NCBI GenBank assembly: GCA_964016885.1
Contig: OZ024745.1
Coordinates: forward strand, 73,780,001 to 73,844,000
Direction of reading: 5' to 3'
Origin: Eledone cirrhosa
Lineage: Eukaryota
Length of the DNA: 64,000 nt
The notes under the pieces were generated by a model. It did not search any database, was not told where the DNA came from, and was given only the letters and a program-made list of their open reading frames with translations. This document shows positions 3,803 through 63,555 of the stretch, piece after piece. Position 1 is the first letter of the stretch. Each line of letters starts with the position of its first letter. The position numbers and the translations under genes are program-made.

Positions 3803-3828
3803 TTATTATTATTATTTTTATTATTATA

Positions 3829-29499: not shown

Positions 29500-29554
29500 T
29501 TAAATTTCTGGCCTTGTGCCTAAATCAGAAACCATCATTATTATTATTATTATT
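29500..29554 (+). mobile_element. SINE-type 3' tail plus (ATT)n at the left edge of the array
   Basis: TTCTGGCCTTGTGCCTAAATCAGAAACCATC followed by (ATT)n. Confidence 0.7.
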
Positions 29555-30357
29555 GTTCTTTGAGTCTCAGTCATTGATGTTATTTAACTGGAAAGTTTGT
29601 TGAAATGAATATCAAGCCGCTACCTACAGCCTCAGATATTCAGGACGTATCGGAGGTTCTTACTGTTCCCAGCAAGCATGCCTTTTGAAGTGTTCCAAAA
29701 AGCGGGGCTGCACTAATCTTCTTTAATCATCCTTGGAAACTCTTTGAGATAGTACCTACTGCGCCTATGACAATCGGGACGACCTAAACATACCTTGTTA
29801 TGTTGATCTTTTACAATGATGTCAGGTCTATTTGCTTTTATGGTCTTGTCAGTATGTAAGTATGTACAGAAAAGTCCCAGTGAATTGTTACTTTTTCTCC
29901 TTCAGTTACAGCCTCAGGGTGATGATTGTACCACTTGTCTTCAGTTTTGATTTGATAATGCCGACATATTACCCAGTGTAGATATTGGCCAACTCTGTCA
30001 TGTCTATATTTGTATTATACTGGTACTAAAACTTTACATCCAGAGACTAAGTGATCTACTGTTTCAACATCAGTATTGCAGAATCGGCACTTTGGGTTTA
30101 TACCGTTTCTCATCACACTGGCCTGGTAATTAGGAGTCAATAAGATTTGATCTTGGGCAGATAAGATGAAGCCTTTACTATCCGCCTTTAGCCCTGAACT
30201 ACGTAGCCACTGATGGGTGTGCTTTTGGTCAACATCAGCTTGTTTGCTACGGGCCACATATTTGCCATGCAGAGGTTTCTGCTCCCAATTTGATGCTAAT
30301 TGTCCTTGCCCTTTTGCTTTTGCCAGTGATTTTATGTGCCTAGCAGAATCAGTTGCA
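29555..30357 (-). mobile_element. 5'-truncated degenerate R4/Dong-type element
   Basis: WEQKPLHGKY..HQWLRSSGLK..GFILSAQDQ..CRFCNTDVETVDHLVSGC and a terminal LQKACLLGT. It is flanked by ATT tracts. Confidence 0.9.
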
Positions 30358-30387
30358 ATTATTATTATTATTATTGTTATTGTTATT

Positions 30388-30513
30388 CCTTGAATCTCAG
30401 TCATTGATGTTGGTTAACTGGAAAGTCCGTTGGATTGAATATCAAGCCACTACCTGCAGCCTCAGATATTCAGGACGTATCGGAGGGTTCTTGCCGTTCC
30501 AAGCAAGCATGCC

Positions 30514-30516
<3 letters not shown>
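30388..30516 (-). mobile_element. ~130-bp extreme 3' fragment of the same R4/Dong-type family
   Basis: KACLLGTARTLRYVLNI* plus a 3'UTR similar to 29557-29686. It is flanked by ATT tracts. Confidence 0.85.
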
Positions 30517-30550
<34 letters not shown>

Positions 30551-30764
30551 GAATGCCATGGTTGACGGAGGCTCGGCTCTGTAAGGTATAGTAATTTTTA
30601 ACCGTTAAAACAATTGTAAATTGTTTAAAACTTGAACCAAATTGTTGATAAAGACACCCTCCTCCTCGTGAGAGGGGTCTTTCTGTCCGTTATTTGGCCC
30701 TTCGGGGTTAAATAACCAGTTATTGGGGTTTTGTACCCAATATTCATTTTAAACAAAAAACAAC

Positions 30765-32861
30765 ATGGCTACGAAAAAGAAATTTCATACGTCACTCCCA
30801 CTCATTCCGTCTTCTTCTTCCTCAATCATCACTACAGCAGAGAGAAGATTGTCTCTCTCCCTCCCTTCTTTAAATGTGTCTCTCTCCCTCCCTTCTCTTT
30901 CGCAAGTGACGAAAGAAAAGAAAAGTCTCGTGCAAAGCGTGCAAGGTTTCTCCACGACGACGACGACAGCGACGAAACAGGTGTGCGGGAAATACGAAAA
31001 CCCAGTTCATTCGTCTGACGTCAGGAATAATAGCAGTAGCAGCCGTAATAACAACAGCAACAGTGACAATGAAAACAACAGTAGCAGCCGCAACAGCATC
31101 ACCAGCAGCATAAACAACAACAGCATTAGCAGCAGCAACACCAACAACAACCACAGCAACAGCGGCGGAGGCAGTAGTCGTAGTACCTGCAGCAACAACA
31201 AAAGTACCAGCAGCTCTGACGACAACAACAACAGCAGAGAAAAACCAATCTCATTTGCAGGTATTGCGAAAAACTTGGAAACAATCCTCATAACAAATGA
31301 GGAATTAGAGGAAGCGAAGAAGATGGTGACAAAGAACGGACACCGAGCAATCTGCAAGGCAGCGAAAAATTTTTTCGAAACCCAAGAGCACTGTACGGTC
31401 ACGTACCGTACAGTAAGTACAAAATCCCGTAGGGTGGAAAGAGCCACAGAGGCCCAAATACAAAAAGCCTTGGGGTCTGTGTGGCAGAGGAAAACGCACA
31501 TCACCCGAGGCAAAAAATACGCCACCGTAGACGTACTTTTTGCCACACCCCAGGAGGCAAAGGCCCAATCAGTAGTGACCCTAAGGAGCGAGGAAATGGT
31601 GTTGGTGCCCTCCTACTGCGGGCAAAAAATTGTGAGGGTCAAACTGACCCACGTCCCCCCCGGAATGACCCCTTCTTGGCTGGCCGCGTCTGTCCTCGTC
31701 GGAATCGAGGACAAAACAACTGTACTGCAAGTACAGAAAAAAGTAAGAGAAGATTGGGTCGGCTCCTCCATTGAGATGCTAATCCAAACCAACCAGGAGT
31801 GCATCGAAGCTATCCCGGATGTGATAGACTTCGATAACGGCACTCAACTGCCCATAAGTGTTGAGGGCAAACGCCCGAAATGCTTTCGCTGTGGATCGAA
31901 GACTCACCTCAGGGCCTTCTGCAACGAGAAGACCCTGAGAAAGGAGAAAACCCCCCTCCTTCCGAATCCGGCTCCACGGCTACCAGCAACAGGACAAGCG
32001 GCAACCAGGAACGATAGGTCCGTGGCACCCATACCCACTCCACGGAAATCAAAGACAGAAGCAGCAGTGGAAATATTAACAACAACAACAGCAATACCAA
32101 ATGCAGCTGCAACAGAGACTCCAGTGCAAACATCACCAACAACAACAAGTGAAAGAGTGGAGCTGGTACCCCTCCCCGACCTTACAGAATCAGACATGGA
32201 GTGTGAGGTGGGAGAGGGATGGCAAAAGGTCGCAAGAAGGCACAAACGCAGAAGCAGCGCATCGTCGCCTTTGAAAAGGGAGGAAAGAAATGAGAAAAGG
32301 GTAAAGTCTACTGCAAAGAGACCCACAGCAGCAACACCACCAACACCATCACCACCCACACCAGCACCACCATCACCACCGGCGACAACCCCACCGCCAA
32401 CAACACCTTCAACACCACCACCACAAGCACCAACATCGCAAACACAACAACAAAACACACACACCCAGCAACAACGACAAGAAAATAGCAGAACCACACC
32501 CCACCCCCAGAAAAACAAATGCACGGCAATAAACACACACAACAAGAAACTAATGACTTACATAATTGAACACACAGACATTTCACAACAGGACTACATA
32601 ATACCAGCACCAATCAAAACGCCAACTAACATAAGACTGCTAAAAATAGCACAGAAACAATACACAAACATTAAAACGAAATTCCCCAACGCAGTTGGTG
32701 ATTTCAGGGACCTAGGAGGAACCATCAATCGAAGAGTATATTCAGACATTCTCTTAGAAGAGCCGACGACCAGCCGAAGGGACGATTCAACGGTCCCTTC
32801 ACCAGACGATCAAGTGAAAAGGGATGTAAAAACCATCCCTCCTCTACCAAAAGTACGGTAA
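30765..32861 (+). CDS. ORF1 nucleic-acid-binding protein (698 aa)
   Basis: Asn/Ser-rich N-terminus, globular centre, CCHC knuckle CFRCGSKTHLRAFC, basic WQKVARRHKRR segment, Pro/Thr-rich linker and a conserved C-terminal block. Confidence 0.9.
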   Translation: MATKKKFHTSLPLIPSSSSSIITTAERRLSLSLPSLNVSLSLPSLSQVTKEKKSLVQSVQGFSTTTTTATKQVCGKYENPVHSSDVRNNSSSSRNNNSNSDNENNSSSRNSITSSINNNSISSSNTNNNHSNSGGGSSRSTCSNNKSTSSSDDNNNSREKPISFAGIAKNLETILITNEELEEAKKMVTKNGHRAICKAAKNFFETQEHCTVTYRTVSTKSRRVERATEAQIQKALGSVWQRKTHITRGKKYATVDVLFATPQEAKAQSVVTLRSEEMVLVPSYCGQKIVRVKLTHVPPGMTPSWLAASVLVGIEDKTTVLQVQKKVREDWVGSSIEMLIQTNQECIEAIPDVIDFDNGTQLPISVEGKRPKCFRCGSKTHLRAFCNEKTLRKEKTPLLPNPAPRLPATGQAATRNDRSVAPIPTPRKSKTEAAVEILTTTTAIPNAAATETPVQTSPTTTSERVELVPLPDLTESDMECEVGEGWQKVARRHKRRSSASSPLKREERNEKRVKSTAKRPTAATPPTPSPPTPAPPSPPATTPPPTTPSTPPPQAPTSQTQQQNTHTQQQRQENSRTTPHPQKNKCTAINTHNKKLMTYIIEHTDISQQDYIIPAPIKTPTNIRLLKIAQKQYTNIKTKFPNAVGDFRDLGGTINRRVYSDILLEEPTTSRRDDSTVPSPDDQVKRDVKTIPPLPKVR

Positions 32862-32896
32862 GTGGTCTTTCCCATCTTTTCCACTCTATTTTAAAC

Positions 32897-35800
32897 ATGA
32901 CCTCACTCAGAATAGGCAGCATAAATGCGCGTGGCTTGGGGTCGTCATGGAAGCAGGGTCACCTGCTCAACGACCTCAGGTCACTAAACATAGATGTAGT
33001 GGCCATCAGCGAGACCAGAATCTCCGAAGCACGGGCCTTCGCACCGATCTTCGGCGGCTACGATGTGTACGCATCTCCCAGCCGTCCTGGATCGGGTGGA
33101 GGAGTTGCTGTGCTTTTTCGGAGAGGTTTGGATCTCGCCATACGGGCCATCTTCCTGGACCCAGAGGGTAAGCTGGTGGTGCTGAACGTGACCAGCGGAG
33201 ACGGGCAAGCTTTCAGGCTAGTGGCCGTCTATGCCCCGACAGGAGCAGGGCGGCCTGATTTCTTCCGGCGTCTGGAGACCTTTCTTGGAACGTCCCGCTC
33301 TTTAGTGTTAGTGGGCGACTGGAATGGGATCTTAGATGCGCGCTGGGACTGTGTGGGATTAGCGGATAGGGGTGGAGGGTGCAAGAGCCTCACCAACCTG
33401 CTCAGGCGTTTTGAACTGTCTGACAGGTACCGATTGGATTTCCCGAATGTGCCAATGTGGACTTGGACAAACCGCATAGGGTCATCCAGATCATATCTAG
33501 ATAGAGTATTTTGTAGGGAAATAGATAGGTCTAGCATAGGCTGTCCACAATTCAAGATAGTCAGCTACACGGACCACAAATTCGTGACCTGTGTGCTTGA
33601 CTTAGATAGGCTTCATAGACGAGGACCCGGCTACTGGAAGCTAAACGCGTCCTTACCAGCGCGCAAGGCCTACAGAGACCGGATTAGCGAACTAGTTAAG
33701 CGGGCGTTGACGGGGGCCATCGTCAACAACAAGTGGTGGTTTGCTCTGAAAAGAGCGATTAGAATAGAATCGATTAGGTTTAGTAAGGCTTTAGCAATAG
33801 AGAAAAATAGAGCAGAGGGAGAACTAGTTACAAAATTAGACGAGGCGCTTAGCAAAGGCATTGCGACCGACGTGCTTGCGGCGAAATTGGCCCTTGACCA
33901 ATTCTTCAATGCAAAGCACGAAGGCTGCGTTGTCAGAGCTAGGGTGCGTGCTCTCAGACACGAGGGGACGAAAGCCGTTCAATGGGCCCGAGTGGCGGAG
34001 GCGCGTCGTGGCAACAAAGCCACGATCCGGTCTTTGGTGGACCACGACGGGCGCATGCTACTCGATCCCGGGCAAATGTGTGAAGCTTTTCAGCGACACT
34101 TCGCTCAGCTGTTCGGGGGCAGCGGGGGGCCGGGTAGAGGGATGGACTTTAGTGTCTACCTCGACGGACTGCCGCGGCTCTCGGCCACTGAGGCGAAGTG
34201 TTGCGAAAAGCCGATAACAGCCGCTGAAGTACGGGAGGCAATGACTGGCTGCACAAGGGGTAAATCGCCTGGTTTGGATGGTCTGCCCTATGAACTTTAC
34301 GTACAGATGCCAGACTTGTTCGGAGGCCTCTTGGCGGACGTCTACTGCAACTGGCAACAGAACGGGAGAATTCCCAGTTCTGTGAGCCGAGGAGCGGTGG
34401 CACTGCTGAGAAAGGATCCGAACAAGGGGGATAACATAGAAAATTTCCGGCCCATAACTCTGCTAAACACAGAGTTTAAGATTTTGGCCAAGGTGCTAGC
34501 AAAGAGGTTGGCGCTTGTCGTTGGTGGTCTGGTGGGAGAGGCGCAGACATGCGCCATTCCCGACAGATCCATCCACGACAACCTCCACCTCATGCGATAC
34601 ATCGTAGAGAGGGTAGCTAGGGAACCTGGCACGGGTGGGTCCTTGATCAATTTAGATCAGTCGAAAGCTTTCGATAGGGTCGACCATCGTTACCTAGCGG
34701 CAGTCCTGAGGGCGGCTGGCTTTGGGCCCGTCTTCAGAGGCTGGATCGCTGCCATGCACAGCGACATCTGCTCTGTGGTGAGAGTGAACGGTCACCTGTC
34801 GGAACCGTTCAACATCATGCGCTCGGTCCGCCAAGGATGTCCCCTCTCGTCCCTCTTGTACGTATTGACTCTCGAGCCATTACTGCACAAACTGGAGACG
34901 TTGAGGGGAGTCCCGCGCGAACTAGGATGCGGAAGATCCGTGTCAGCATATGCGGACGATGTCACCGTAGTGGTGTCGAACGCCAAACACATCGAGGCGA
35001 TCGGCACTACACTAAGAGAATACGAAGCGGTGACAGGAGCAATGATCAACCAGGAAAAGTCAGTGGGCCTGCAGCTCGGCACCTGGAGAGGCAGGTCCAT
35101 GCCGTCCAACAGCGTCGTCGGGCGCTGGACGGACGGACCGGTTAAATTGCTAGGGGTCTGGTTCGGTCCGGACCTCCAGACGGACAAAAACTGGGACGAG
35201 GTGACGAGCAGGGTGGCTTCTCTCACCCAGAAATGGGCGGAGAGGAAGCTATCCCTGAAAGGTCGAGCGGAGGTGGCTAACGCGTACATCGCGTCTGTCA
35301 TCTGCTACCGCCTAACCGTCGTACCTTGTCCTAAGCCTCGCCTGACTGCGCTGGAGCGTTTGCTCTTTCGCTTTTTGTGGAAGGGACGTGCTCCGATGGT
35401 CAGGCGGTCCATCTGTTGTCAACACCCGCTACGTGGAGGGCTGGGGATGCCGTGGCTGATGATGCGCAGGCACGCGCTCAGGCTACGACATCTCCACCTC
35501 TTCCTCGACGGTGATCAGGTGTGGTCGCCGTTTGCTAGACGCGTTTTTCCCCAGCTCGTTTCCTTGACGGAGCTGCAGTCCTGGGTCAAGCGAAGACCGA
35601 GAGGGAGCGCCTGGAGACTGGAATGTCTTCAGGCGCTCACAGCCCTCGACCAATCGGGCAATGTGATCGGTGGAAACTCCACCTCGGCGTTCTATAGAGG
35701 ATTAGTGGAGGGGAAGAGCGACGACGTACTTGGGGAAACTCTAGGCGTCGACGAAAATCAACTAGCCAATCTCTTCGGAAGAACTTTCGGGCCAGGGCCT

Positions 35801-36316
35801 ATGGACAACTTCCAGAAATCTCTGGCCTGGCAGTGCTACCGAGGAGCCTTGCCAGTTCGGGATAAACTCTACAGGCATGGAGGTGCCGTCAGCCGGGCAT
35901 GTCCGAGATGCGCGCAGGGCGACGAAACCGTCCTGCACGCACTCGTCGAGTGTCCGAAAATTGCTGACTTGTGGGTTTATGTCGAACACCTGCTGTCGCG
36001 TTTAGGACGGATCCAGCTATCATCTGAGTCTATCGTGAGGATTGCCCCGCCCTCCTCCTTTAGCCGGGAAGGGCAGGCAGTTTTTATCTGTCTGGTGGCC
36101 ATGGCGAAAGAGATAGTATGGTGGACACGTTTGAAAGGGCTGAAGACGAGCACTTACCTCTTCGGTGATGCTCTGATTGACTTTTTCAAATTTCATTTGA
36201 AAAGGAAAATCAGAGTAGAGAAGGAAGTGCTCTCTTCCCAGCATTTTGTTGAAAGATGGGTGAGAGAAGCAAGAATGGCCCGAGTGAATGGGCCGACTCT
36301 GAGTATATATCTGTAA
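32897..36316 (+). CDS. ORF2: APE endonuclease, reverse transcriptase and C-terminal zinc finger (1139 aa)
   Basis: EN motifs INARGL, SETR, VYAP, GDWN, YLDR, TDH; the GPGYWKLN motif; RT motifs KSPGLDGLP, FRPITLLN, DQSKAFDRVDH, RQGCPLS, YADD; finger CPRCAQGDETVLHALVEC. Confidence 0.97.
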   Translation: MTSLRIGSINARGLGSSWKQGHLLNDLRSLNIDVVAISETRISEARAFAPIFGGYDVYASPSRPGSGGGVAVLFRRGLDLAIRAIFLDPEGKLVVLNVTSGDGQAFRLVAVYAPTGAGRPDFFRRLETFLGTSRSLVLVGDWNGILDARWDCVGLADRGGGCKSLTNLLRRFELSDRYRLDFPNVPMWTWTNRIGSSRSYLDRVFCREIDRSSIGCPQFKIVSYTDHKFVTCVLDLDRLHRRGPGYWKLNASLPARKAYRDRISELVKRALTGAIVNNKWWFALKRAIRIESIRFSKALAIEKNRAEGELVTKLDEALSKGIATDVLAAKLALDQFFNAKHEGCVVRARVRALRHEGTKAVQWARVAEARRGNKATIRSLVDHDGRMLLDPGQMCEAFQRHFAQLFGGSGGPGRGMDFSVYLDGLPRLSATEAKCCEKPITAAEVREAMTGCTRGKSPGLDGLPYELYVQMPDLFGGLLADVYCNWQQNGRIPSSVSRGAVALLRKDPNKGDNIENFRPITLLNTEFKILAKVLAKRLALVVGGLVGEAQTCAIPDRSIHDNLHLMRYIVERVAREPGTGGSLINLDQSKAFDRVDHRYLAAVLRAAGFGPVFRGWIAAMHSDICSVVRVNGHLSEPFNIMRSVRQGCPLSSLLYVLTLEPLLHKLETLRGVPRELGCGRSVSAYADDVTVVVSNAKHIEAIGTTLREYEAVTGAMINQEKSVGLQLGTWRGRSMPSNSVVGRWTDGPVKLLGVWFGPDLQTDKNWDEVTSRVASLTQKWAERKLSLKGRAEVANAYIASVICYRLTVVPCPKPRLTALERLLFRFLWKGRAPMVRRSICCQHPLRGGLGMPWLMMRRHALRLRHLHLFLDGDQVWSPFARRVFPQLVSLTELQSWVKRRPRGSAWRLECLQALTALDQSGNVIGGNSTSAFYRGLVEGKSDDVLGETLGVDENQLANLFGRTFGPGPMDNFQKSLAWQCYRGALPVRDKLYRHGGAVSRACPRCAQGDETVLHALVECPKIADLWVYVEHLLSRLGRIQLSSESIVRIAPPSSFSREGQAVFICLVAMAKEIVWWTRLKGLKTSTYLFGDALIDFFKFHLKRKIRVEKEVLSSQHFVERWVREARMARVNGPTLSIYL

Positions 36317-36578
36317 ACTAAAGGTGGAAAACTGGGAGAGGGCACTTGCCTTGGTGGTCAGGGTCATTGTGGCTTTTTACTGGGCTTTCTCCACAAATGT
36401 CCCTCCGAAGTCTCCCCCCTATTGGGGAATTTTTCATTGTTATTTTCATTGTTATTTTTGTTACATCCTCTGTTTTTGTTTTTTTTTACACGCAGAAATG
36501 CCCATTTGTACCGTCCTGCATTGTCCTGCACTGTCCTTAATGTCTACTTTATGTAAACCCTTGTGGTTAATAAAGAAA

Positions 36579-36580
<2 letters not shown>

Positions 36581-36632
<52 letters not shown>
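36581..36632. repeat. (ATT)n spacer shared as the tail of Tx1 copy 1 (+) and of the Dong-type element (-)
   Basis: Read directly. Equivalent spacers occur at 30516-30550, 39667-39707, 45385-45408, 51291-51317, 57199-57225 and 63252-63286. Confidence 0.95.
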
Positions 36633-36633
<1 letters not shown>

Positions 36634-39600: not shown

Positions 39601-39666
39601 AGATGATTTAAATCAGTAATGTTTAGTTTGTTTGTGATGATAATGGTTTTGAGAATTATGTTAGTC
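36633..39666 (-). mobile_element. R4/Dong-clade RLE non-LTR retrotransposon, 5'-truncated
   Basis: A single RT-CCHC-RLE reading frame stays open into the upstream (AAT)n. A ~144-nt 3'UTR is followed by (TAA)n on the coding strand. Confidence 0.92.
36777..39666 (-). pseudogene. RT plus restriction-like endonuclease ORF with one in-frame stop (37890-37892)
   Basis: Motifs NYRPITC, IDYKKAFDS, GIFQGDSLSPLLF, FYMDDLK, CRVCKKQPETIDHIISMC, RHD and NRPDIILKD..IDMSVP..KLSKYKDL. ORFs 37890-39560 and 36777-37877 are in the same frame (DTKI*KFLTMH). Confidence 0.92.
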
Positions 39667-39707
<41 letters not shown>

Positions 39708-39916
39708 GGTGACCTACGTAGTAAATCGTATCATCGTGAGCTCCGCAAAGGTTTGTTATTTCCGTTTGTTAAAAACTGCCATTTATGGAAAAAGTTTATT
39801 GTTAACTATATATAAGCGCACATACACAGTTTTCCGAAAAGGACACCCAAAAAGATTGGGGCCTTGTGCCCAAAATTTAAACTTTTATGATTATCAAAAA
39901 ATTTCTTTGAAAAAAA

Positions 39917-47574: not shown

Positions 47575-47605
47575 ACCTTCCTCTCTCTCTGTTTAACCTG
47601 CCAAC

Positions 47606-50600: not shown

Positions 50601-51028
50601 TCAGACGGACCTGCCCGAGATGCGCGCAGAGCGACGAAACCGTTCTGCACGTACTCGTCCAGTGTCCGTGCATTACTAACTTGTGGAGTTATGTTGATCA
50701 GCTGTTGTCGCGTGTAGAACGGATCCGGCTATCGGCCCAGTCCATAGTGAAGATCGACCCGCCACCTTCTTTTGGCCAGGAAGGGCAGGCAATTTTCCTC
50801 TGTGTGGTGGCAGTAGCGAAAGAGGTTGTATGGTGGACGAGGTTGAAAGGACTGAAAACAGACACTTTTCTCTTCGGCCAATCCCTCATCAACTTTTTTA
50901 AGTTTCACTTGGAAAGGAAGGTGAGGGTGGGGAGAGAAGTGCTGTCCCCCAGTACATTTACTGAAAGGTGGGTGAATGTGGCGAGAATGGCCCGTGTGAG
51001 TGGGCCTACTCTGGTCATGCGGCTATAG
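47606..51028 (+). pseudogene. Disrupted C-type ORF2 (APE-RT-zf)
   Basis: MAVLRVGCLNVRGLG..YADD..CPRCAQSDETVLH. There is a frameshift near 48010 and stops at ~48471 and ~50444. Confidence 0.92.
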
Positions 51029-51530
51029 GTAGGTAAATTTGAAGAAGAGAGGGGTCCCTTCCAGGGTGCTCTCAAAGCGTCAGGTCGTTCAGGACTGGTG
51101 GGGTACCTGAGCGAACCCTAGGTGGTCATCCCCACTATTGGGCAATTTTTTCTTGTAATTTTCTTGTCACTTTATTGTTACTTTGTTATTGTTATTCATA
51201 TTGTTTACTCGATTTTTATGTAAAACCCCACTGTCCCAGTCTATTGTATTGTCCCCTATATGTCGGCCCTTGTGGCCAATAAATGAAATCATTATTATTA
51301 TTATTATTATTATTATTGAATGCTATGGTTGACGGAGGCTCGGCTCTGTAAGGTATTGTAAATTTTGAACGCTTTAACAATTGTAAATTGTTTAAAACTT
51401 AGACCAACTTGTAGACAAAAACACCCTCCTCCTCGTGACAGGGGTCTTTCTGCCCGTTATTTGGCCCTTCGGGGTTAAATAATTGCTTATTGGGGGTTTG
51501 TACCCAATATTTATTTTAAACAAAAAAAAC

Positions 51531-53639: not shown

Positions 53640-53674
53640 GTGGTCTTTCCCATCTTTTCCACTCTATTTTAAAC

Positions 53675-56600
53675 ATGACCTCACTCAGAATAGGCAGCAT
53701 AAATGCGCGTGGCTTGGGGTCGTCATGGAAGCAGGGTCACCTGCTCAACGACCTCAGGTCACTAAACATAGATGTAGTGGCCATCAGCGAGACCAGAATC
53801 TCCGAAGCACGGGCCTTCGCACCGATCTTCGGCGGCTACGATGTGTACGCATCTCCCAGCCGTTCTGGATCCGGTGGAGGAGTTGCTGTGCTTTTTCAGA
53901 GAGGTTTGGATCTCGCCATACGGGCCATCTTCCTGGACCCAGAGGGTAAGCTGGTGGTGCTGGACGTGACCAGCGGAGACGGGCAAGCTTTCAGGCTAGT
54001 GGCCGTCTATGCCCCGACAGGAGCAGGGCGGCCTGATTTCTTCCGGCGTCTGGAGACCTTTCTTGGAACGTCCCGCTCTTTAGTGTTAGTGGGCGACTGG
54101 AACGGGATCTTAGATGCACGCTGGGACTGTGTGGGATTAGCGGATAGGGGTGGAGGGTGCAAGAGCCTCACCAACCTGCTCAGGCGTTTTGAACTGTCTG
54201 ACAGGTACCGATTGGATTTCCCGAATGTGCCAATGTGGACTTGGACAAACCGCATAGGGTCATCCAGATCATATCTAGATAGAGTATTTTGTAGGGAAAT
54301 AGATAGGTCTAGCATAGGCTGTCCACAATTCAAGATAGTCAGCTACACGGACCACAAATTCGTGATCTGTGTGCTTGACTTAGATAGGCTTCATAGACGA
54401 GGACCCGGCTACTGGAAGCTAAACGCGTCCTTACCAGCGCGCAAGGCCTACAGAGACCGGATTAGCGAACTAGTTAAGCGGGCGTTGACGGGGGCCATCG
54501 TCAACAACAAGTGGTGGTTTGCTCTGAAAAGAGCGATTAGAATAGAATCGATTAGGTTTAGTAAGGCTTTAGCAATAGAGAAAAATAGAGCAGAGGGAGA
54601 ACTAGTTAGAAAATTAGACGAGGCGCTTAGCAAAGGCATTGCGACCGACGTGCTTGCGGCGAAATTGGCCCTTGACCAATTCTTCAATGCAAAGCACGAA
54701 GGCTGCGTTGTCAGAGCAAGGGTGCGTGCTCTCAGACACGAGGGGACGAAAGCCGTTCAATGGGCCCGAGTGGCGGAGGCGCGTCGTGGCAACAAAGCCA
54801 CGATCCGGTCTTTGGTGGACCACGACGGGCGCATGCTACTCGATCCCGGGAAAATGTGTGAAGCTTTTCAGCGACACTTCGCTCAGCTGTTCGGGGGAAG
54901 CGGTGGGCCGAGTAGAGGGATGGACTTTAGTGTCTACCTCGACGGACTGCCGCGGCTCTCGGCCACTGAGGCGAAGTGTTGCGAAAAGCCGATAACAGCC
55001 GCTGAAGTAAGGGAGGCAATGACTGGCTGCACAAGGGGTAAATCGCCTGGTTTGGATGGTCTGCCCTATGAACTTTACGTACAGATGCCAGACTTGTTCG
55101 GAGGCCTCTTGGCGGACGTCTACTGCAACTGGCAACAGAACGGGAGAATTCCCAGTTCTGTGAGCCGAGGAGCGGTGGCACTGCTGAGAAAGGATCCGAA
55201 CAAGGGGGATAACATAGAAAATTTCCGGCCCATAACTCTGCTAAACACAGAGTTTAAGATTTTGGCCAAGGTGCTAGCAAAGAGGTTGGCGCTTGTCGTT
55301 GGTGGTCTGGTGGGAGAGGCGCAGACATGCGCCATTCCCGACAGATCCATCCACGACAACCTCCACCTCATGCGATACATCGTAGAGAGGGTAGCTAGGG
55401 AACCTGGCACGGGTGGGTCCTTGATCAATTTAGATCAGTCGAAAGCTTTCGATAGGGTCGACCATCGTTACCTAGCGGCAGTCCTGAGGGCGGCTGGCTT
55501 TGGGCCCGTCTTCAGAGGCTGGATCGCTGCCATGCACAGCGACATCTGCTCTGTGGTGAGAGTGAGCGGTCACCTGTCGGAACCGTTCAACATCATGCGC
55601 TCGGTCCGCCAAGGATGTCCCCTCTCGTCCCTCCTGTACGTATTGACTCTCGAGCCATTACTGCACAAACTGGAGACGTTGAGGGGGATCCCGCGCGAAC
55701 TAGGATGCGGAAGATCCGTGTCAGCATATGCGGACGATGTCACCGTAGTGGTGTCGAACGCCAAACACATCGAGGCGATCGGCACTACACGGACCTCCAG
55801 ACGGACAAAAACTGGGACGAGGTGACGAGCAGGGTGGCTTCTCTCACCCAGAAATGGGCGGAGAGGAAGCTATCCCTGAAAGGTCGAGCGGAGGTGGCTA
55901 ACGCGTACATCGCGTCTGTCATCTGCTACCGCCTGACCGTCGTACCTTGTCCTAAGCCTCGCCTGACTGCGCTGGAGCGTTTGCTCTTTCGCTTTTTGTG
56001 GAAGGGACGTGCTCCGATGGTCAGGCGGTCCATCTGTTGTCAACACCCGCTACGTGGAGGGCTGGGCATGCCGTGGCTGATGATGCGCAGGCACGCGCTC
56101 AGGCTACGACATCTCCACCTCTTCCTCGACGGTGATCAGGTGTGGTCGCCGTTTGCTAGACGCGTTTTTCCCCAGCTCGTTTCCTTGACGGAGCTGCAGT
56201 CCTGGGTCAAGCGAAGACCGAGAGGGAGCGCCTGGAGACTGGAATGTCTTCAGGCGCTCACAGCCCTCGACCAATCGGGCAATGTGATCGGTGGAAACTC
56301 CACCTCGGCGTTCTATAGAGGATTAGTGGAGGGGAAGAGCGATGACGTACTTGGGGAAACTCTAGGCGTCGACGAAAATCAACTAGCCAATCTCTTCGGA
56401 AAAACTTTCGGGCCGGGGCCTATGGACAAATTCCAGAAATCTCTGGCCTGGCAGTGCTACCGAGGAGCCTTGCCAGTTCGGGATTAACTCTACAGGCATG
56501 GAGGTGCCGTCAGCCGGGCATGTCCGAGATGCGCGCAGGGCGACGAAACCGTCCTGCACGCACTCGTCCAGTGTCCGAAAATTGCTGACTTGTGGGTTTA

Positions 56601-56937
56601 TGTCGAACACCTGCTGTCGCGTTTAGGACGGATCCGGCTATCATCTGAGTCCATCGTGAGGATTGCCCCGCCCTCCTCCTTTAGCCGGGAAGGGCAGGCA
56701 GTTTTTATCTGTCTGGTGGCCATGGCGAAAGAGATAGTATGGTGGACACGTTTGAAAGGGCTGAAGACGAGCACTTACCTCTTCGGTGATGCTCTGATTG
56801 ACTTTTTCAAATTTCATTTGAAAAGGAAAATCAGAGTAGAGAGGGAAGTGCTCTCTTCCCAGCATTTTGTTGAAAGATGGGTGAGAGAAGCAAGAATGGC
56901 CCGAGTGAATGGGCCTACTCTGAGTATATATCTGTAA
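53675..56937 (+). pseudogene. ORF2 with a 157-bp deletion and a nonsense mutation
   Basis: The junction GGCACTACAC|GGACCTCCAG at 55790/55791 skips copy-1 bases 35013-35169 (3420 vs 3263 bp). There is a stop at 56485-56487. Confidence 0.92.
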
Positions 56938-57439
56938 ATTAAAGGTGGAAAACTGGGAGAGGGCACTTGCCTTGGTGGTCAGGGTCATTGTGGCTTTTTA
57001 CTGGGCTTTCTCCACAAATGTCCCTCCGAAGTCTCCCCCCTATTGGGGAATTTTTCATTGTTATTTTCATTGTTATTTTTGTTACATCCTCTGTTTTTGT
57101 TTTTTACACGCAGAAATGCCCATTTGTACCGTCCTGCATTGTCCTGCACTGTCCTTAATGTCTACTTTATGTAAACCCTTGTGGTTAATAAAGAAATCAT
57201 TATTATTATTATTATTATTATTATTGAATGCCATGGTTGACGGAGGCTCGGCTCTGTAAGGTATAGTAATTTTTAACCGTTAAAACAATTGTAAATTGTT
57301 TAAAACTTGAACCAAATTGTTGATAAAGACACCCTCCTCCTCGTGAGAGGGGTCTTTCTGTCCGTTATTTGGCCCTTCGGGGTTAAATAACCAGTTATTG
57401 GGGTTTTGTACCCAAAATTTCATTTTAAACAAAAAAAAC

Positions 57440-59533
57440 ATGGCTACCAAAAAGAAATTTCATACGTCACTCCCACTCATTCCGTCTTCTTCTTCCTCAA
57501 TCATCACTACAGCAGAGAGAAGATTGTCTCTCTCCCTCCCTTCTTTAAATGTGTCTCTCTCCCTCCCTTCTCTTTCGCAAGCGACGAAAGAAAAGAAAAG
57601 TCTCGTGCAAAGCGTGCAAGGTTTCTCCACGACGACGACGACAGCGACGAAACAGGTGTGCGGGAAATACGAAAACCCAGTTCATTCGTCTGACGTCAGG
57701 AATAATAGCAGTAGCAGCCGTAATAACAACAGCAACAGTGACAATGAAAACAACAGTAGCAGCCGCAACAGCATCACCAGCAGCATAAACAACAACAGCA
57801 TTAGCAGCAGCAACACCAACAACAACCACAGCAACAGCGGCGGAGGCAGTAGTCGTAGTACCTGCAGCAACAAAAGTACCAGCAGCTCTGACGACAACAA
57901 CAACAGCAGAGAAAAACCAATCTCATTTGCAGGTATTGCGAAAAACTTGGAAACAATCCTCATAACAAATGAGGAATTAGAGGAAGCGAAGAAGATGGTG
58001 ACAAAGAACGGACACCGAGCAATCTGCAAGGCAGCGAAAAATTTTTTCGAAACCCAAGAGCACTGTACGGTCACGTACCGTACAGTAAGTACAAAATCCC
58101 GTAGGGTGGAAAGAGCCACAGAGGCCCAAATACAAAAAGCCTTGGGGTCTGTGTGGCAGAGGAAAACGCACATCACCCGAGGCAAAAAATACGCCACCGT
58201 AGACGTACTTTTTGCCACACCCCAGGAGGCAAAGGCCCAATCAGTAGTGACCCTAAGGAGCGAGGAAATGGTGTTGGTGCCCTCCTACTGCGGGCAAAAA
58301 ATTGTGAGGGTCAAACTGACCCACGTCCCCCCCGGAATGACCCCTTCTTGGCTGGCCGCGTCTGTCCTCGTCGGAATCGAGGACAAAACAACTGTACTGC
58401 AAGTACAGAAAAAAGTAAGAGAAGATTGGTTCGGCTCCTCCATTGAGATGCTAATCCAAACCAACCAGGAGTGCATCGAAGCTATCCCGGATGTGATAGA
58501 CTTCGATAACGGCACTCAACTGCCCATAAGTGTTGAGGGCAAACGCCCGAAATGCTTTCGCTGTGGATCGAAGACTCACCTCAGGGCCTTCTGCAACGAG
58601 AAGACCCTGAGAAAGGAGAAAACCCCCCTCCTTCCGAATCCGGCTCCACGGCTACCAGCAACAGGACAAGCGGCAACCAGGAACGATAGGTCCGTGGCAC
58701 CCATACCCACTCCACGGAAATCAAAGACAGCAGCAGCAGTGGAAATATTAACAACAACAACAGCAATACCAAATGCAGCTGCAACAGAGACTCCAGTGCA
58801 AACATCACCAACAACAACAAGTGAAAGAGTGGAGCTGGTACCCCTCCCCGACCTCACAGAATCAGACATGGAGTGTGAGGTGGGAGAGGGATTGCAAAAG
58901 GCCGCAAGAAGGCACAAACGCAGACGCAGCGCATCGTCGCCTTTGAAAAGGGAGGAAAGAAATGAGAAAAGGGTAAAGTCTACTGCAAAGAGACCCACAG
59001 CAGCAACAACACCAACACCATCACCACCCACACTAGCGCCACCATCACCACCGGCGACAACCCCACCGCCAACAACACCTTCAACACCACCACCACAAGC
59101 ACCAACATCGCAAACACAACAACAAAACACACACACCCAGCAACAACGACAAGAAAATAGCAGAACCACACCCCACCCCCAGAAAAACAAATGCACGGCA
59201 ATAAATACACACAACAAGAAACTAATGACTTACATAATTGAACACACAGACATTTCACAACAGGACTACATAATACCAGCACCAATCAAAACGCCAACTA
59301 ACATAAGACTGCTAAAAATAGCACAGAAACAATACACAAATATTAAAACGAAATTCCCCAACGCAGTTGGTGATTTCAGGGACCTAGGAGGAACCATCAA
59401 TCGAAGAGTATACTCAGACATTCTCTTAGAAGAGCCGACGACCAGCCGAAGGGACGATTCAACGGTCCCTTCACCAGACGATCAAGTGAAAAGGGATGTA
59501 AAAACCATCCCTCCTCTACGAAAAGTACGGTAA
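57440..59533 (+). CDS. ORF1 protein (697 aa from MATKKK)
   Basis: Uninterrupted homolog of 30765-32861. Confidence 0.9.
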   Translation: MATKKKFHTSLPLIPSSSSSIITTAERRLSLSLPSLNVSLSLPSLSQATKEKKSLVQSVQGFSTTTTTATKQVCGKYENPVHSSDVRNNSSSSRNNNSNSDNENNSSSRNSITSSINNNSISSSNTNNNHSNSGGGSSRSTCSNKSTSSSDDNNNSREKPISFAGIAKNLETILITNEELEEAKKMVTKNGHRAICKAAKNFFETQEHCTVTYRTVSTKSRRVERATEAQIQKALGSVWQRKTHITRGKKYATVDVLFATPQEAKAQSVVTLRSEEMVLVPSYCGQKIVRVKLTHVPPGMTPSWLAASVLVGIEDKTTVLQVQKKVREDWFGSSIEMLIQTNQECIEAIPDVIDFDNGTQLPISVEGKRPKCFRCGSKTHLRAFCNEKTLRKEKTPLLPNPAPRLPATGQAATRNDRSVAPIPTPRKSKTAAAVEILTTTTAIPNAAATETPVQTSPTTTSERVELVPLPDLTESDMECEVGEGLQKAARRHKRRRSASSPLKREERNEKRVKSTAKRPTAATTPTPSPPTLAPPSPPATTPPPTTPSTPPPQAPTSQTQQQNTHTQQQRQENSRTTPHPQKNKCTAINTHNKKLMTYIIEHTDISQQDYIIPAPIKTPTNIRLLKIAQKQYTNIKTKFPNAVGDFRDLGGTINRRVYSDILLEEPTTSRRDDSTVPSPDDQVKRDVKTIPPLRKVR

Positions 59534-59568
59534 GTGGTCTTTCCCATCTTTTCCACTCTATTTTAAAC

Positions 59569-62500
59569 ATGACCTCACTCAGAATAGGCAGCATAAATGC
59601 GCGTGGCTTGGGGTCGTCATGGAAGCAGGGTCACCTGCTCAACGACCTCAGGTCACTAAACATAGATGTAGTGGCCATCAGCGAGACCAGAATCTCCGAA
59701 GCACGGGCCTTCGCACCGATCTTCGGCGGCTTCGATGTGTACGCATCTCCCAGCCGTCCTGGATCCGGTGGAGGAGTTGCTGTGCTTTTTCGGAGAGGTT
59801 TGGATCTCGCCATACGGGCCATTTTCCTGGACCCAGAGGGTAAGCTGGTGGTGCTGGACGTGACCAGCGGAGACGGGCAAGCTTTCAGGCTAGTGGCCGT
59901 CTATGCCCCGACAGGAGCAGGGCGGCCTGATTTCTTCCGGCGTCTGGAGACCTTTCTTGGAACGTCCCGCTCTTTAGTGTTAGTGGGCGACTGGAACGGG
60001 ATCTTAGATGCACGCTGGGACTGTGTGGGATTAGCGGATAGGGGTGGAGGGTGCAAGAGCCTCACCAACCTGCTCAGGCGTTTTGAACTGTCTGACAGGT
60101 ACCGATTGGATTTCCCGAATGTGCCAATGTGGACTTGGACAAACCGCATAGGGTCATCCAGATCATATCTAGATAGAGTATTTTGTAGGGAAATAGATAG
60201 GTCTAGCATAGGCTGTCCACAATTCAAGATAGTCAGCTACACGGACCACAAATTCGTGATCTGTGTGCTTGACTTAGATAGGCTTCATAGACGAGGACCC
60301 GGCTACTGGAAGCTAAACGCGTCCTTACCAGCGCGCAAGGCCTACAGAGACCGGATTAGCGAACTAGTTAAGCGGGCGTTGACGGGGGCCATCGTCAACA
60401 ACAAGTGGTGGTTTGCTCTGAAAAGAGCGATTAGAATAGAATCGATTAGGTTTAGTAAGGCTTTAGCAATAGAGAAAAATAGAGCAGAGGGAGAACTAGT
60501 TAGAAAATTAGACGAGGCGCTTAGCAAAGGCATTGCGACCGACGTGCTTGCGGCGAAATTGGCCCTTGACCAATTCTTCAATGCAAAGCACGAAGGCTGC
60601 GTTGTCAGAGCAAGGGTGCGTGCTCTCAGACACGAGGGGACGAAAGCCGTTCAATGGGCCCGAGTGGCGGAGGCGCGTCGTGGCAACAAAGCCACGATCC
60701 GGTCTTTGGTGGACCACGACGGGCGCATGCTACTCGATCCCGGGCAAATGTGTGAAGCTTTTCAGCGACACTTCGCTCAGCTGTTCGGGGGCAGCGGTGG
60801 GCCGGGTAGAGGGATGGACTTTAGTGTCTACCTCGACGGACTGCCGCGGCTCTCGGCCACTGAGGCGAAGTGTTGCGAAAAGCCGATAACAGCCGCTGAA
60901 GTAAGGGAGGCAATGACTGGCTGCACAAGGGGTAAATCGCCTGGTTTGGATGGTCTGCCCTATGAACTTTACGTACAGATGCCAGACTTGTTCGGAGGCC
61001 TCTTGGCGGACGTCTACTGCAACTGGCAACAGAACGGGAGAATTCCCAGTTCTGTGAGCCGAGGAGCGGTGGCACTGCTGAGAAAGGATCCGAACAAGGG
61101 GGATAACATAGAAAATTTCCGGCCCATAACTCTGCTAAACACAGAGTTTAAGATTTTGGCCAAGGTGCTAGCAAAGAGGTTGGCGCTTGTCGTTGGTGGT
61201 CTGGTGGGAGAGGCGCAGACATGCGCCATTCCCGACAGATCCATCCACGACAACCTCCACCTCATGCGATACATCGTAGAGAGGGTAGCTAGGGAACCTG
61301 GCACGGGTGGGTCCTTGATCAATTTAGATCAGTCGAAAGCTTTCGATAGGGTCGACCATCGTTACCTAGCGGCAGTCCTGAGGGCGGCTGGCTTTGGGCC
61401 CGTCTTCAGAGGCTGGATCGCTGCCATGCACAGCGACATCTGCTCTGTGGTGAGAGTGAACGGTTACCTGTCGGAACCGTTCAACATCATGCGCTCGGTC
61501 CGCCAAGGATGTCCCCTCTCGTCCCTCTTGTACGTATTGACTCTCGAGCCATTACTGCACAAACTGGAGACGTTGAGGGGAGTCCCGCGCGAACTAGGAT
61601 GCGGAAGATCCGTGTCAGCATATGCGGACGATGTCACCGTAGTGGTGTCGAACGCCAAACACATCGAGGCGATCGGCACTACACTAAGAGAATACGAAGC
61701 GGTGACAGGAGCAATGATCAACCAGGAAAAGTCAGTGGGCCTGCAGCTCGGCACCTGGAGAGGCAGGTCCATGCCGTCCAACAGCGTCGTCGGGCGCTGG
61801 ACGGACGGACCGGTTAAATTGCTAAGGGTCTGGTTCGGTCCGGACCTCCAGACGGACAAAAACTGGGACGAGGTGACGAGCAGGGTGGCTTCTCTCACCC
61901 AGAAATGGGCGGAGAGGAAGCTATCCCTGAAAGGTCGAGCGGAGGTGGCTAACGCGTACATCGCGTCTGTCATCTGCTACCGCCTAACCGTCGTACCTTG
62001 TCCTAAGCCTCGCCTGACTGCGCTGGAGCGTTTGCTCTTTCGCTTTTTGTGGAAGGGACGTGCTCCGATGGTCAGGCGGTCCATCTGTTGTCAACACCCG
62101 CTACGTGGAGGGCTGGGCATGCCGTGGCTGATGATGCGCAGGCACGCGCTCAGGCTACGACATCTCCACCTCTTCCTCGACGGTGATCAGGTGTGGTCGC
62201 CGTTTGCTAGACGCGTTTTTCCCCAGCTCGTTTCCTTGACGGAGCTGCAGTCCTGGGTCAAGCGAAGACCGAGAGGGAGCGCCTGGAGACTGGAATGTCT
62301 TCAGGCGCTCACAGCCCTCGACCAATCGGGCAATGTGATCGGTGGAAACTCCACCTCGGCGTTCTATAGAGGATTAGTGGAGGGGAAGAGCGACGACGTA
62401 CTTGGGGAAACTCTAGGCGTCGACGAAAATCAACTAGCCAATCTCTTCGGAAGAACTTTCGGGCCAGGGCCTATGGACAACTTCCAGAAATCTCTGGCCT

Positions 62501-62988
62501 GGCAGTGCTACCGAGGAGCCTTGCCAGTTCGGGATAAACTCTACAGGCATGGAGGTGCCGTCAGCCGGGCATGTCCGAGATGCGCGCAGGGCGACGAAAC
62601 CGTCCTGCACGCACTCGTCCAGTGTTCGAAAATTGCTGACTTGTGGGTTTATGTCGAACACCTGCTGTCGCGTTTAGGACGGATCCAGCTATCATCTGAG
62701 TCTATCGTGAGGATTGCCCCGCCCTCCTCCTTTAGCCGGGAAGGGCAGGCAGTTTTTATCTGTCTGGTGGCCATGGCGAAAGAGATAGTATGGTGGACAC
62801 GTTTGAAAGGGCTGAAGACGAGCACTTACCTCTTCGGTGATGCTCTGATTGACTTTTTCAAATTTCATTTGAAAAGGAAAATCAGAGTAGAGAGGGAAGT
62901 GCTCTCTTCCCAGCATTTTGTTGAAAGATGGGTGAGAGAAGCAAGAATGGCCCGAGTGAATGGGCCGACTCTGAGTATATATCTGTAA
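59569..62988 (+). CDS. ORF2 APE-RT-zf (1139 aa)
   Basis: Uninterrupted; about 9 amino-acid differences from copy 1, counted by eye. Confidence 0.97.
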   Translation: MTSLRIGSINARGLGSSWKQGHLLNDLRSLNIDVVAISETRISEARAFAPIFGGFDVYASPSRPGSGGGVAVLFRRGLDLAIRAIFLDPEGKLVVLDVTSGDGQAFRLVAVYAPTGAGRPDFFRRLETFLGTSRSLVLVGDWNGILDARWDCVGLADRGGGCKSLTNLLRRFELSDRYRLDFPNVPMWTWTNRIGSSRSYLDRVFCREIDRSSIGCPQFKIVSYTDHKFVICVLDLDRLHRRGPGYWKLNASLPARKAYRDRISELVKRALTGAIVNNKWWFALKRAIRIESIRFSKALAIEKNRAEGELVRKLDEALSKGIATDVLAAKLALDQFFNAKHEGCVVRARVRALRHEGTKAVQWARVAEARRGNKATIRSLVDHDGRMLLDPGQMCEAFQRHFAQLFGGSGGPGRGMDFSVYLDGLPRLSATEAKCCEKPITAAEVREAMTGCTRGKSPGLDGLPYELYVQMPDLFGGLLADVYCNWQQNGRIPSSVSRGAVALLRKDPNKGDNIENFRPITLLNTEFKILAKVLAKRLALVVGGLVGEAQTCAIPDRSIHDNLHLMRYIVERVAREPGTGGSLINLDQSKAFDRVDHRYLAAVLRAAGFGPVFRGWIAAMHSDICSVVRVNGYLSEPFNIMRSVRQGCPLSSLLYVLTLEPLLHKLETLRGVPRELGCGRSVSAYADDVTVVVSNAKHIEAIGTTLREYEAVTGAMINQEKSVGLQLGTWRGRSMPSNSVVGRWTDGPVKLLRVWFGPDLQTDKNWDEVTSRVASLTQKWAERKLSLKGRAEVANAYIASVICYRLTVVPCPKPRLTALERLLFRFLWKGRAPMVRRSICCQHPLRGGLGMPWLMMRRHALRLRHLHLFLDGDQVWSPFARRVFPQLVSLTELQSWVKRRPRGSAWRLECLQALTALDQSGNVIGGNSTSAFYRGLVEGKSDDVLGETLGVDENQLANLFGRTFGPGPMDNFQKSLAWQCYRGALPVRDKLYRHGGAVSRACPRCAQGDETVLHALVQCSKIADLWVYVEHLLSRLGRIQLSSESIVRIAPPSSFSREGQAVFICLVAMAKEIVWWTRLKGLKTSTYLFGDALIDFFKFHLKRKIRVEREVLSSQHFVERWVREARMARVNGPTLSIYL

Positions 62989-63249
62989 ACTAAAGGTGGA
63001 AAACTGGGAGAGGGCACTTGCCTTGGTGGTCAGGGTCATTGTGGCTTTTTACTGGGCTTTCTCCACAAATGTCCCTCCGAAGTCTCCCCCCTATTGGGGA
63101 ATTTTTCATTGTTATTTTCATTGTTATTTTTGTTACATCCTCTGTTTTTGTTTTTTTTACACGCAGAAATGCCCATTTGTACCGTCCTGCATTGTCCTGC
63201 ACTGTCCTTAATGTCTACTTTATGTAAACCCTTGTGGTTAATAAAGAAA

Positions 63250-63286
<37 letters not shown>

Positions 63287-63476
63287 GTGTTTTAGGGTGT
63301 ATTGGCAGTATCGGTAGAGGGTCGGACGCCATTCTTTACGGCATATAGTTACGGTTCTTTATATTCTGAATTCAAATCCCGCCGACGTTAACTTTGCCTT
63401 TTATCCTTTCGGAGTCGATAAAATAAAGTACCAGTAATGCACTGGGATAATTACTGGCCTTGTAGAAACAATTATT
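63287..63476 (+). mobile_element. SINE family 1 directly after the last (ATT)n
   Basis: TTGGCAGTATCGGTAGAGGGTCGG..TTCAAATCCCGCCG..AAAGTACCAGTAATGCACTGG..GGCCTTGTAGAAACAATTATT. Confidence 0.88.
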
Positions 63477-63555
63477 TTTATGTGTTTTTGTTCTCATACT
63501 GTCCCCAATGTGGTGGAACCATGTGGCCAATAAAAAAAAAATCATTATTATTATT
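63477..63555 (+). mobile_element. ~70-bp extreme 3' remnant of another Tx1-type element
   Basis: CTGTCCCC..CCATGTGGCCAATAAAAAAAAAAATC followed by (ATT)n resembles the subfamily C terminus. Confidence 0.6.

What the first reader, a model, noticed from the sequence alone, without database searches (positions are those of the whole stretch)
29500..63555. 34-kb retrotransposon array built inside an (ATT)n microsatellite
Seen: essentially no unique DNA across ~34 kb. Five Tx1-type elements, three Dong-type pieces, SINE ends and a Tx1 stub are each separated only by short (ATT)n tracts (mostly 24-52 bp). The 5' ends of full-length elements abut ATT directly (ATT|GAATG, ATT|GGTGA, ATT|GGTCT), so the repeat is a target and not just a tail. 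Known: some Tx1-clade families are microsatellite-specific (Kibi on (TC)n, Koshi on (TTC)n). Inference: this is an (ATT)n-specific APE family whose insertions regenerate their own target, giving a self-extending landing pad. The copies differ in subfamily and degree of decay, which argues for serial insertion rather than tandem duplication.
Basis: partly seen in the sequence, partly recalled or inferred. Interest (0 to 1): 0.85.

Follow-up and report, generated by a model that had tools for sequence, protein, structure and literature searches.

The report
ATT-repeat-targeting LINE family stacks arrays
A 34-kb stretch is a pile of jumping genes separated only by short ATT repeats, and the main family sits directly behind an ATT repeat at 96% of its roughly 2,500 full-length copies in this genome, so it very likely aims at that repeat and likely builds such piles by landing again and again beside earlier arrivals.

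Summary
Observation confirmed. 29.5-63.6 kb holds five same-strand L1/Tx1-type LINEs of three families, three opposite-strand Dong-type pieces, two SINE parts and a stub, separated by ten ATT runs. Genome-wide, 2,373 of 2,459 family-A heads have (ATT)3 in phase directly upstream; B 30 of 30 and C 29 of 30 sampled. Only 10 of 26 5'-truncated copies do (background 0.3%). The window's three A copies share no rare variants, which supports serial insertion here; some other arrays show local duplication. The array is not special: four other 4-6-copy arrays were checked. In 16 of 22 copies followed by (CTT)n, exactly one ATT is left at the 3' end, so long 3' runs may be mostly target, not tail. Microsatellite-specific Tx1 families, Dong on (TAA)n and tandem arrays by double insertion are published. 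I found no report of an ATT target for this group, but Repbase could not be searched. Tx1-clade membership, endonuclease specificity and long-read support are untested. The scan already noted this family at five or more other loci of this genome. Verdict: new member of a known kind, with odd junction rules worth testing.

The parts
29480..29536 (+). 3' end of a SINE-like repeat (left anchor; start approximate)
   Evidence: tail motif shared with SINE ends upstream of ATT runs elsewhere
29537..29554 (.). (ATT)6 run
29555..30353 (-). 5'-truncated, decayed Dong-type (R4, RLE) fragment, second family
   Evidence: tblastn 36% to the Dong ORF at 36780-39605, E 5e-46
30358..30375 (.). (ATT)6 run
30376..30517 (-). 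142-bp 3' piece of the second Dong-type family
   Evidence: 88% to 29534-29686; translation matches ORF C-terminus
30518..30550 (.). (ATT)11 run
30551..36580 (+). Full-length element A1, intact ORF1 (30765-32861, CCHC knuckle) and ORF2 (32897-36316, APE-RT-zf-RVT)
36581..36631 (.). (ATT)17 run, tail-to-tail junction of A1 and Dong
36632..39668 (-). 5'-truncated Dong-type element, one in-frame stop; RT, CCHC finger, restriction-like endonuclease motif
39669..39707 (.). (ATT)13 run
39708..45384 (+). Full-length element B: own 5' half, ORF2 region 94.7% to A, frameshifted
45385..45408 (.). (ATT)8 run
45409..51290 (+). Full-length element C: 75% DNA identity to A over ORF2, broken ORFs
51291..51317 (.). 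(ATT)9 run
51318..57198 (+). Element A2, about 157-bp internal deletion near 55790, broken ORFs
57199..57225 (.). (ATT)9 run
57226..63251 (+). Full-length element A3, both ORFs open (ORF2 59569-62988)
63252..63284 (.). (ATT)11 run
63295..63470 (+). SINE-like repeat (boundaries approximate)
   Evidence: 80-86% matches elsewhere in the window and in many loci
63480..63555 (+). Short Tx-type 3' stub and (ATT)4 (right anchor; start approximate)

Best explanation
The array is a stack of independently inserted retrotransposons from a young, likely still active L1/Tx1-group LINE lineage that sits in phase in (ATT)n runs throughout this genome and likely targets them, together with Dong-type elements lying in the same runs on the opposite strand. 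Shown: element anatomy, flank counts, polarity, and no special kinship of the window's copies. Inferred: ORF2's APE endonuclease nicks the (AAT)n strand, the RNA 3' end primes reverse transcription there, and the 5' end is joined within an ATT run of about five or more units. Each insertion leaves a usable run on both sides, so a locus with k elements offers about k+1 targets and grows further. Most long ATT runs in this genome border earlier insertions, so new copies tend to land beside old ones. Occasional local duplication or conversion adds to some arrays, though not detectably to this one.
For: Heads with (ATT)3 in phase upstream: 2,373 of 2,459; 30 of 30 A loci with >=5 units; B 30 of 30 and C 29 of 30 with >=3. 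Truncated copies 10 of 26 against 0.3% background. Upstream of the run lie unrelated neighbours (Tx tails 39, SINE tails 6, another repeat's tails 2, CTT runs 5, other 38, of 90), so the run pre-exists. Polarity over 323 distinct runs in fetched loci: all 327 Tx sides on +, 99 of 100 Dong sides on -. Window A copies differ by 0.56-1.57%, share 0 rare variants, and their nearest kin are at other loci. 13 of 43 full-length A copies keep both ORFs; closest pairs differ by 0.15%. Catalytic APE residues and the YADD motif align with human L1 ORF2p. 338 tail-gap-head junctions genome-wide, control 3. Precedent for endonuclease-set specificity: Tx1L-EN nicks almost only its target (PMC1950540, passages). 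Precedent for tandems by double insertion: PMC5932611 (passages).
Against: 16 of 26 truncated copies lack (ATT)3 at the 5' junction; 7 of these abut the inside of a Dong-type piece (my reading of the flanks). In 16 of 22 copies followed by (CTT)n only one ATT remains downstream, and in 17 of the 18 with a head no CTT is duplicated upstream, which a fixed staggered cut does not predict. Some neighbours in other arrays are each other's closest kin (0.15-0.17%, 6-9 shared rare variants). Runs are not used evenly: tails of another abundant repeat are 7 of 30 census runs but precede 2 of 90 heads. Head samples were the best-matching or first-listed copies, not random ones. No reads, no empty allele, no enzyme assay.
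Confidence: 0.7

Rival explanations
1. Targeting is set largely by RNA-DNA pairing, not by a strict endonuclease. A relaxed L1-like enzyme nicks T/A steps; the transcript starts in the donor's upstream ATT run, so full-length cDNA ends in (AAT)n and anneals to an ATT run near the nick to form the 5' junction.
For: Full-length 96.5% versus truncated 10 of 26. 18 of 18 head-bearing copies followed by CTT still have >=5 ATT upstream (L271 read). One copy reads (CTT)31(ATT)13-element-(ATT)2(CTT)10(ATT)4 (L287). Two of four large arrays repeat the DNA between two runs around an unrelated copy (813 bp identical; a 38-bp stub). The EN hairpin has the length of L1's in the alignment, not the longer Tx1L tip described in PMC1950540. 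R2 precedent for co-transcribed target sequence: PMC4494074 section 20 passage.
Against: Truncated copies are still enriched over 100-fold at ATT. Upstream neighbours are typical pre-existing ATT sites. Truncated junctions without ATT may be later deletions, since internal deletions are common in the family. 0 of 40 dispersed copies show a run-to-run duplication. Transcript starts were not observed.
Confidence: 0.3
2. The array arose mainly by tandem duplication or unequal exchange after one or two insertions.
For: Seen for some neighbours elsewhere: R3_2/R3_3 0.17% with 9 shared rare variants, R4_2/R4_3 0.15% with 6, L031/L032 with 5.
Against: In this window: three families (75-95% alike), two Dong families, and A copies with 0 shared rare variants and distances no smaller than to other loci.
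Confidence: 0.05
3. The array is an assembly artefact: separate loci joined or expanded at near-identical 6-kb copies.
For: Three copies are 98-99% alike over 6 kb. No read support was obtained; the left flank occurs once in the assembly, so no second allele was available.
Against: Copies carry private differences and a private deletion; the same junction types recur hundreds of times; collapse, not expansion, is the usual error (general knowledge).
Confidence: 0.05

Closest known systems
Kibi (TC)n, Koshi (TTC)n and crocodilian (TTCC)n/(TTTC)n Tx1 families (PMC4494074: passages and section 15; PMC3812793: passages)
   Same: APE-encoding, microsatellite-preferring LINEs; this family far exceeds that paper's >20% flank criterion for target specificity.
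   Different: Repeat unit is ATT; host is probably a cephalopod rather than fish or crocodilian; about 5,100 exact full-length heads over three families; relationship to Kibi/Koshi not tested.
Dong (R4 clade; Bombyx Dong, DongAg, DongBg), TAA-repeat-specific (PMC3812793 passage)
   Same: The minus-strand pieces match in target, RT, CCHC finger and restriction-like endonuclease motif.
   Different: Here Dong shares its target with an unrelated APE family in opposite orientation.
R1 tandem arrays and TE dimers by double insertion in Drosophila (PMC5932611 passages)
   Same: Head-to-tail LINE arrays separated by target DNA, seeded by repeated insertion and sometimes expanded by unequal exchange.
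   Different: Target is a dispersed microsatellite (about 59,000 runs of >=6 units, estimated), arrays are mixed-family and numerous, and spacers vary in length instead of a fixed 33-nt duplication.
TRAS and SART in insect (TTAGG)n telomeric repeats (recalled; no call read on them)
   Same: Two families inserting in opposite orientations into one short repeat, forming retroelement arrays.
   Different: Those are both R1-clade and telomeric; here an APE and an RLE clade share an interstitial repeat.
Tx1L of Xenopus (PMC1950540 passages)
   Same: Sequence-specific insertion by an APE-type LINE.
   Different: Tx1L targets a DNA transposon; its EN hairpin tip is longer than the one aligned here.

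Membership tests
L1 group non-LTR retrotransposon (L1 + Tx1 clades) | ORF2 with N-terminal APE endonuclease, RT and C-terminal cysteine finger | tested here: met
   PF03372, PF00078, PF13966; best solved relative human L1 ORF2p E 4e-53 against R2 E 2e-21
L1 group non-LTR retrotransposon (L1 + Tx1 clades) | Separate upstream ORF1 with nucleic-acid-binding domain | tested here: met
   698-aa ORF1 with CX2CX4HX4C knuckle in the sequence; feature hits 0.91-0.93 to CCHC and ZCCHC3-like clusters; no Pfam hit at threshold
Tx1 clade | RT phylogeny groups with Tx1L, Keno, Kibi, Koshi | not testable with these tools
   No named Tx1 reference was returned; supplements of PMC4494074 unreadable. Nearest relatives at 39-43% identity are unnamed.
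Microsatellite-specific LINE (criterion of PMC4494074) | One repeat type in more than 20% of flanks | tested here: met
   2,373 of 2,459 heads; 10 of 26 truncated junctions
Microsatellite-specific LINE (criterion of PMC4494074) | Specificity encoded by the endonuclease | not testable with these tools
   Needs a nicking assay; single-sequence fold was unusable (pLDDT 35)
Kibi / Koshi | Target (TC)n or (TTC)n | tested here: not met
   Only 22 sites with an A-type tail followed within 12 bases by (CTT)4, against 3,704 exact tails (slightly different tail motif)
Dong (R4 clade) | RT followed by CCHC finger and PD..D/E.K restriction-like endonuclease | tested here: met
   (motif read from the translation; motif definition from PMC4640811 passage and recall)
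Dong (R4 clade) | Insertion in (TAA)n | tested here: met
   26 truncated 5' junctions and 73 3' ends abut ATT runs on the minus strand, 1 opposite (loci chosen around Tx copies)
Dong (R4 clade) | RT phylogeny within R4 | not tested
   No named R4 references on hand; label rests on anatomy and target

The most novel reading that the evidence does not exclude
An APE LINE whose 5' end is homed by its own RNA: read-through from the donor's ATT run gives a cDNA ending in (AAT)n that anneals to whichever ATT run is nearby, so the element integrates full-length and in phase, sometimes duplicating or dropping the DNA between two runs. Together with an RLE family working the opposite strand, this would make thousands of dispersed, self-extending, telomere-like retroelement arrays and most of the genome's long ATT microsatellites.
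Probability: 0.3. Interest if true: 0.68.

Novelty: new member of a known kind. Interest (0 to 1): 0.45.

Why it matters
It gives a young, high-copy, largely full-length LINE with open ORFs and a trivially simple target, so the long-open question of how APE elements recognise microsatellites (called 'not well understood' in PMC3812793) can be tested with one enzyme and short oligos. It offers a concrete cause for TE hotspots in octopus-type genomes, which PMC13282606 maps without naming a target. It also warns that ATT microsatellite markers and assemblies in such genomes are unstable at these sites. The single 34-kb locus is not itself special.

Tried and rejected
DNA search with the 3' end returned nothing because its words are too common; patterns were used instead. 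Protein searches gave no named Tx1 relatives, so no clade tree was built. Metagenome scan for relatives with flanks found none. Single-sequence fold of the EN domain failed and was not used. No Rfam match in 29-64 kb. No second allele of the left flank. Sequencing-run look-up gave no answer, so reads were not examined. Block duplication as the origin of the repeated 813-bp Dong piece at C1:55.4 Mb was rejected: the flanking A copies are neither twins nor a chimera. A fixed 15-18 bp target duplication, first suggested by the 5-6-unit minimum upstream, was not supported by the CTT class. SINE-tail/Tx-tail kinship is weak: 6 of 500 shuffles reached the score for C, 44-93 of 500 for the other four tails. 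One truncated candidate (L116) was left out of the 26 because another insertion hides its junction. Head-behind-Tx-tail enrichment over the census is not significant (39 of 90 vs 8 of 30, p=0.13). Literature searches for an ATT/AAT-specific Tx1 family found none; Kojima & Fujiwara 2004 and Repbase were not available.

Full report
1. What is there. The window lies at G000:C5:73,780,001-73,844,000 in a 3.0-Gb assembly. The host was not determined; one hit is a short fragment in an Octopus sinensis protein, and Dong-R4 and L1-Tx1 are listed as recently active in O. vulgaris (PMC13282606, first third of the text and passages). Between 29537 and 63555 are ten perfect ATT runs of 12-51 bp, 282 of 34,019 bases. 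They separate five + strand LINEs, three - strand Dong-type pieces, SINE-like ends and a stub. A1 and A3 keep both ORFs open; A2, B and C are broken. ORF2 is APE + RT + zf-RVT and aligns best to human L1 ORF2p with the catalytic residues kept. ORF1 has a CCHC knuckle. B shares ORF2 with A at 94.7% but has a different 5' half; C is 75% alike. The long Dong piece has RT, a CCHC finger and a PD..D..K motif with one stop.

2. Is ATT a target? Exact patterns give whole-genome counts: 2,459 A heads, of which 2,373 (96.5%) have (ATT)3 in phase directly upstream; reversed controls 0. All 30 fetched A heads have 5-17 units (these were best-scoring, hence young, copies). B has 2,386 heads and C 301; 30 of 30 and 29 of 30 first-listed copies have at least 3 units. 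What lies beyond the run varies: of 90 heads, 39 follow a Tx tail, 6 a SINE tail, 2 another repeat's tail, 5 a CTT run and 38 something else. So the run belongs to the site.

3. A limit. Of the first 100 exact tails on C1, 52 had no exact A head upstream. Nine had junctions inside the loci already held; 40 of the other 43 were fetched. Many were full-length with a B or diverged head. Of 26 real 5' truncations (one more, L116, left out as unreadable), 10 have (ATT)3 at the junction against 0.3% at random positions. Seven abut the inside of a Dong-type piece. The enrichment is large but far below 96.5%. Later deletions could explain it, since internal deletions are common; so could a 5' join that needs ATT carried on the RNA.

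4. Polarity. Over 323 distinct ATT runs in the fetched loci, all 327 Tx sides are on the ATT strand and 99 of 100 Dong sides on the other. The sample is built around Tx copies and Tx tails are ATT by construction; the informative parts are 162 Tx 5' sides and 26 Dong 5' junctions.

5. How did the array grow? The three A copies differ by 0.56-1.57%, share no rare variant, and each has its nearest relative at another locus. With three Tx and two Dong families present, serial insertion is the simplest account here. Elsewhere it is mixed: among four other arrays of 4-6 A copies most neighbours are unrelated, but two pairs differ by 0.15-0.17% with 6-9 shared rare variants. These four were picked because they were large. 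At least 338 tail-to-head A junctions exist. Runs of six or more units number 44,308 where the preceding base is not T; 164 of 219 runs in my loci start that way, giving about 59,000, of which about 9% have an exact Tx head behind them. In the first 30 such runs, 18 follow a recognisable repeat tail. Arrays are thus a genome-wide habit and this one is not exceptional.

6. Junction rules that do not fit a simple model. Full-length copies have a median of 10 units upstream and 15 downstream (n=40). But 22 sites have an A-type tail followed within 12 bases by (CTT)4; all were fetched. Sixteen keep exactly one ATT; all 18 with a head have 5-25 ATT upstream; only one has CTT upstream as well (misread L271, corrected). 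Empty (ATT)4(CTT)4 joints are rare, 41 genome-wide, and 1 of 20 examined follows a Tx tail. So in these copies the element added at most one unit of tail and duplicated no CTT. Either such boundaries are very strong hot spots, or the two ends are joined independently, the 5' end always in ATT. Two of the four large arrays also repeat the DNA between two runs around unrelated copies. These points favour, without proving, a 5' join by pairing.

7. Mechanism. Most likely (0.7): target-primed reverse transcription at a nick in the (AAT)n strand made by the element's APE domain, 5' joining inside an ATT run, a usable run left on each side, and growth by repeated landing. The nick, its specificity and the source of the added units are inferred. 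The pairing rival (0.3) is partly compatible with this and differs in what sets the specificity. Duplication and misassembly are unlikely for this window (0.05 each), though reads were not seen.

8. Known work. Kibi, Koshi and crocodilian Tx1 families target (TC)n, (TTC)n and (TTCC)n/(TTTC)n (PMC4494074, passages and section 15; its figure 3 and supplements, which list further targets, could not be seen). Dong targets TAA repeats (PMC3812793, passages). Tandem LINEs from double insertion, including R1 arrays, are described (PMC5932611, passages). Tx1L-EN is sequence-specific in vitro (PMC1950540, passages). PMC4640811 and PMC8967140 were read as passages and name no ATT-specific Tx1. TRAS/SART is recalled only. 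Six searches found no ATT-specific Tx1 family; the last was swamped by marker papers, and Kojima & Fujiwara 2004 and Repbase were out of reach, so absence from print is not established. Membership of the Tx1 clade proper was not testable; L1-group anatomy is met.

9. Earlier notes of this scan describe the same family and the opposite polarity at five or more other loci of this genome; I re-tested target, polarity and serial growth myself. Their SINE-partner idea got weak support only. The idea of RNA-carried target sequence appears in one of them for a GATA family.

10. Verdict. Real, well supported at genome scale, a new target for a known kind of element. Interest 0.45; 0.68 if the RNA-homed 5' join holds (probability 0.3).

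Noticed in passing
L231-L235 (G000:C1:55.415-55.465 Mb) and L245-L249 (C2:166.143-166.193 Mb): DNA between two ATT runs is repeated exactly around unrelated family-A copies: an 813-bp Dong piece (0 differences) and a 38-bp SINE-tail stub. Looks like a run-to-run target duplication or unequal exchange; 0 of 40 dispersed copies show it.
   Followed up: partly
L266-L287: 22 copies whose tail runs into (CTT)n; 16 keep exactly one ATT. Empty (ATT)4(CTT)4 joints number only 41 genome-wide against 1,859 for the reversed pattern. Several CTT runs look like the reverse tail of another, unidentified repeat.
   Followed up: partly
L062, L109, L127, L139, L267, L277; window about 41580-41605: Different SINE copies sit at the same spot inside family B's 5' half, with duplications of about 16-19 bp in three of four read in detail (5 bp in one); a hot spot with only ATTA at the junction.
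   Followed up: partly
window 39708-41810 vs 30551-32900: Family B has its own 5' UTR and ORF1 on an A-like ORF2 (94.7%), a 5' swap; 2,386 exact heads.
   Followed up: partly
window 3427-4567: A small older array: Dong-type piece (-), ATT-rich run, 5'-truncated Tx piece (3828-4501, 80% to A), (ATT)7.
   Followed up: partly
L256-L265: Another abundant ATT-tailed repeat (7,907 exact matches of a 27-mer); its tails are rarely used by the Tx families (2 of 90 heads). Not identified.
   Followed up: partly
L104, L108, L114, L117, L120, L125, L132: Truncated A copies fused directly to the inside of minus-strand Dong-type pieces without an ATT run; deletion at or after insertion.
   Followed up: partly
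window 1-29000: AT-rich DNA dense in (TA)n, (TG)n, (TC)n, (TTG)n and (AGT)n runs, no ORF of 150 aa or more; a weak Dong-like match at 27714-27869.
   Followed up: no
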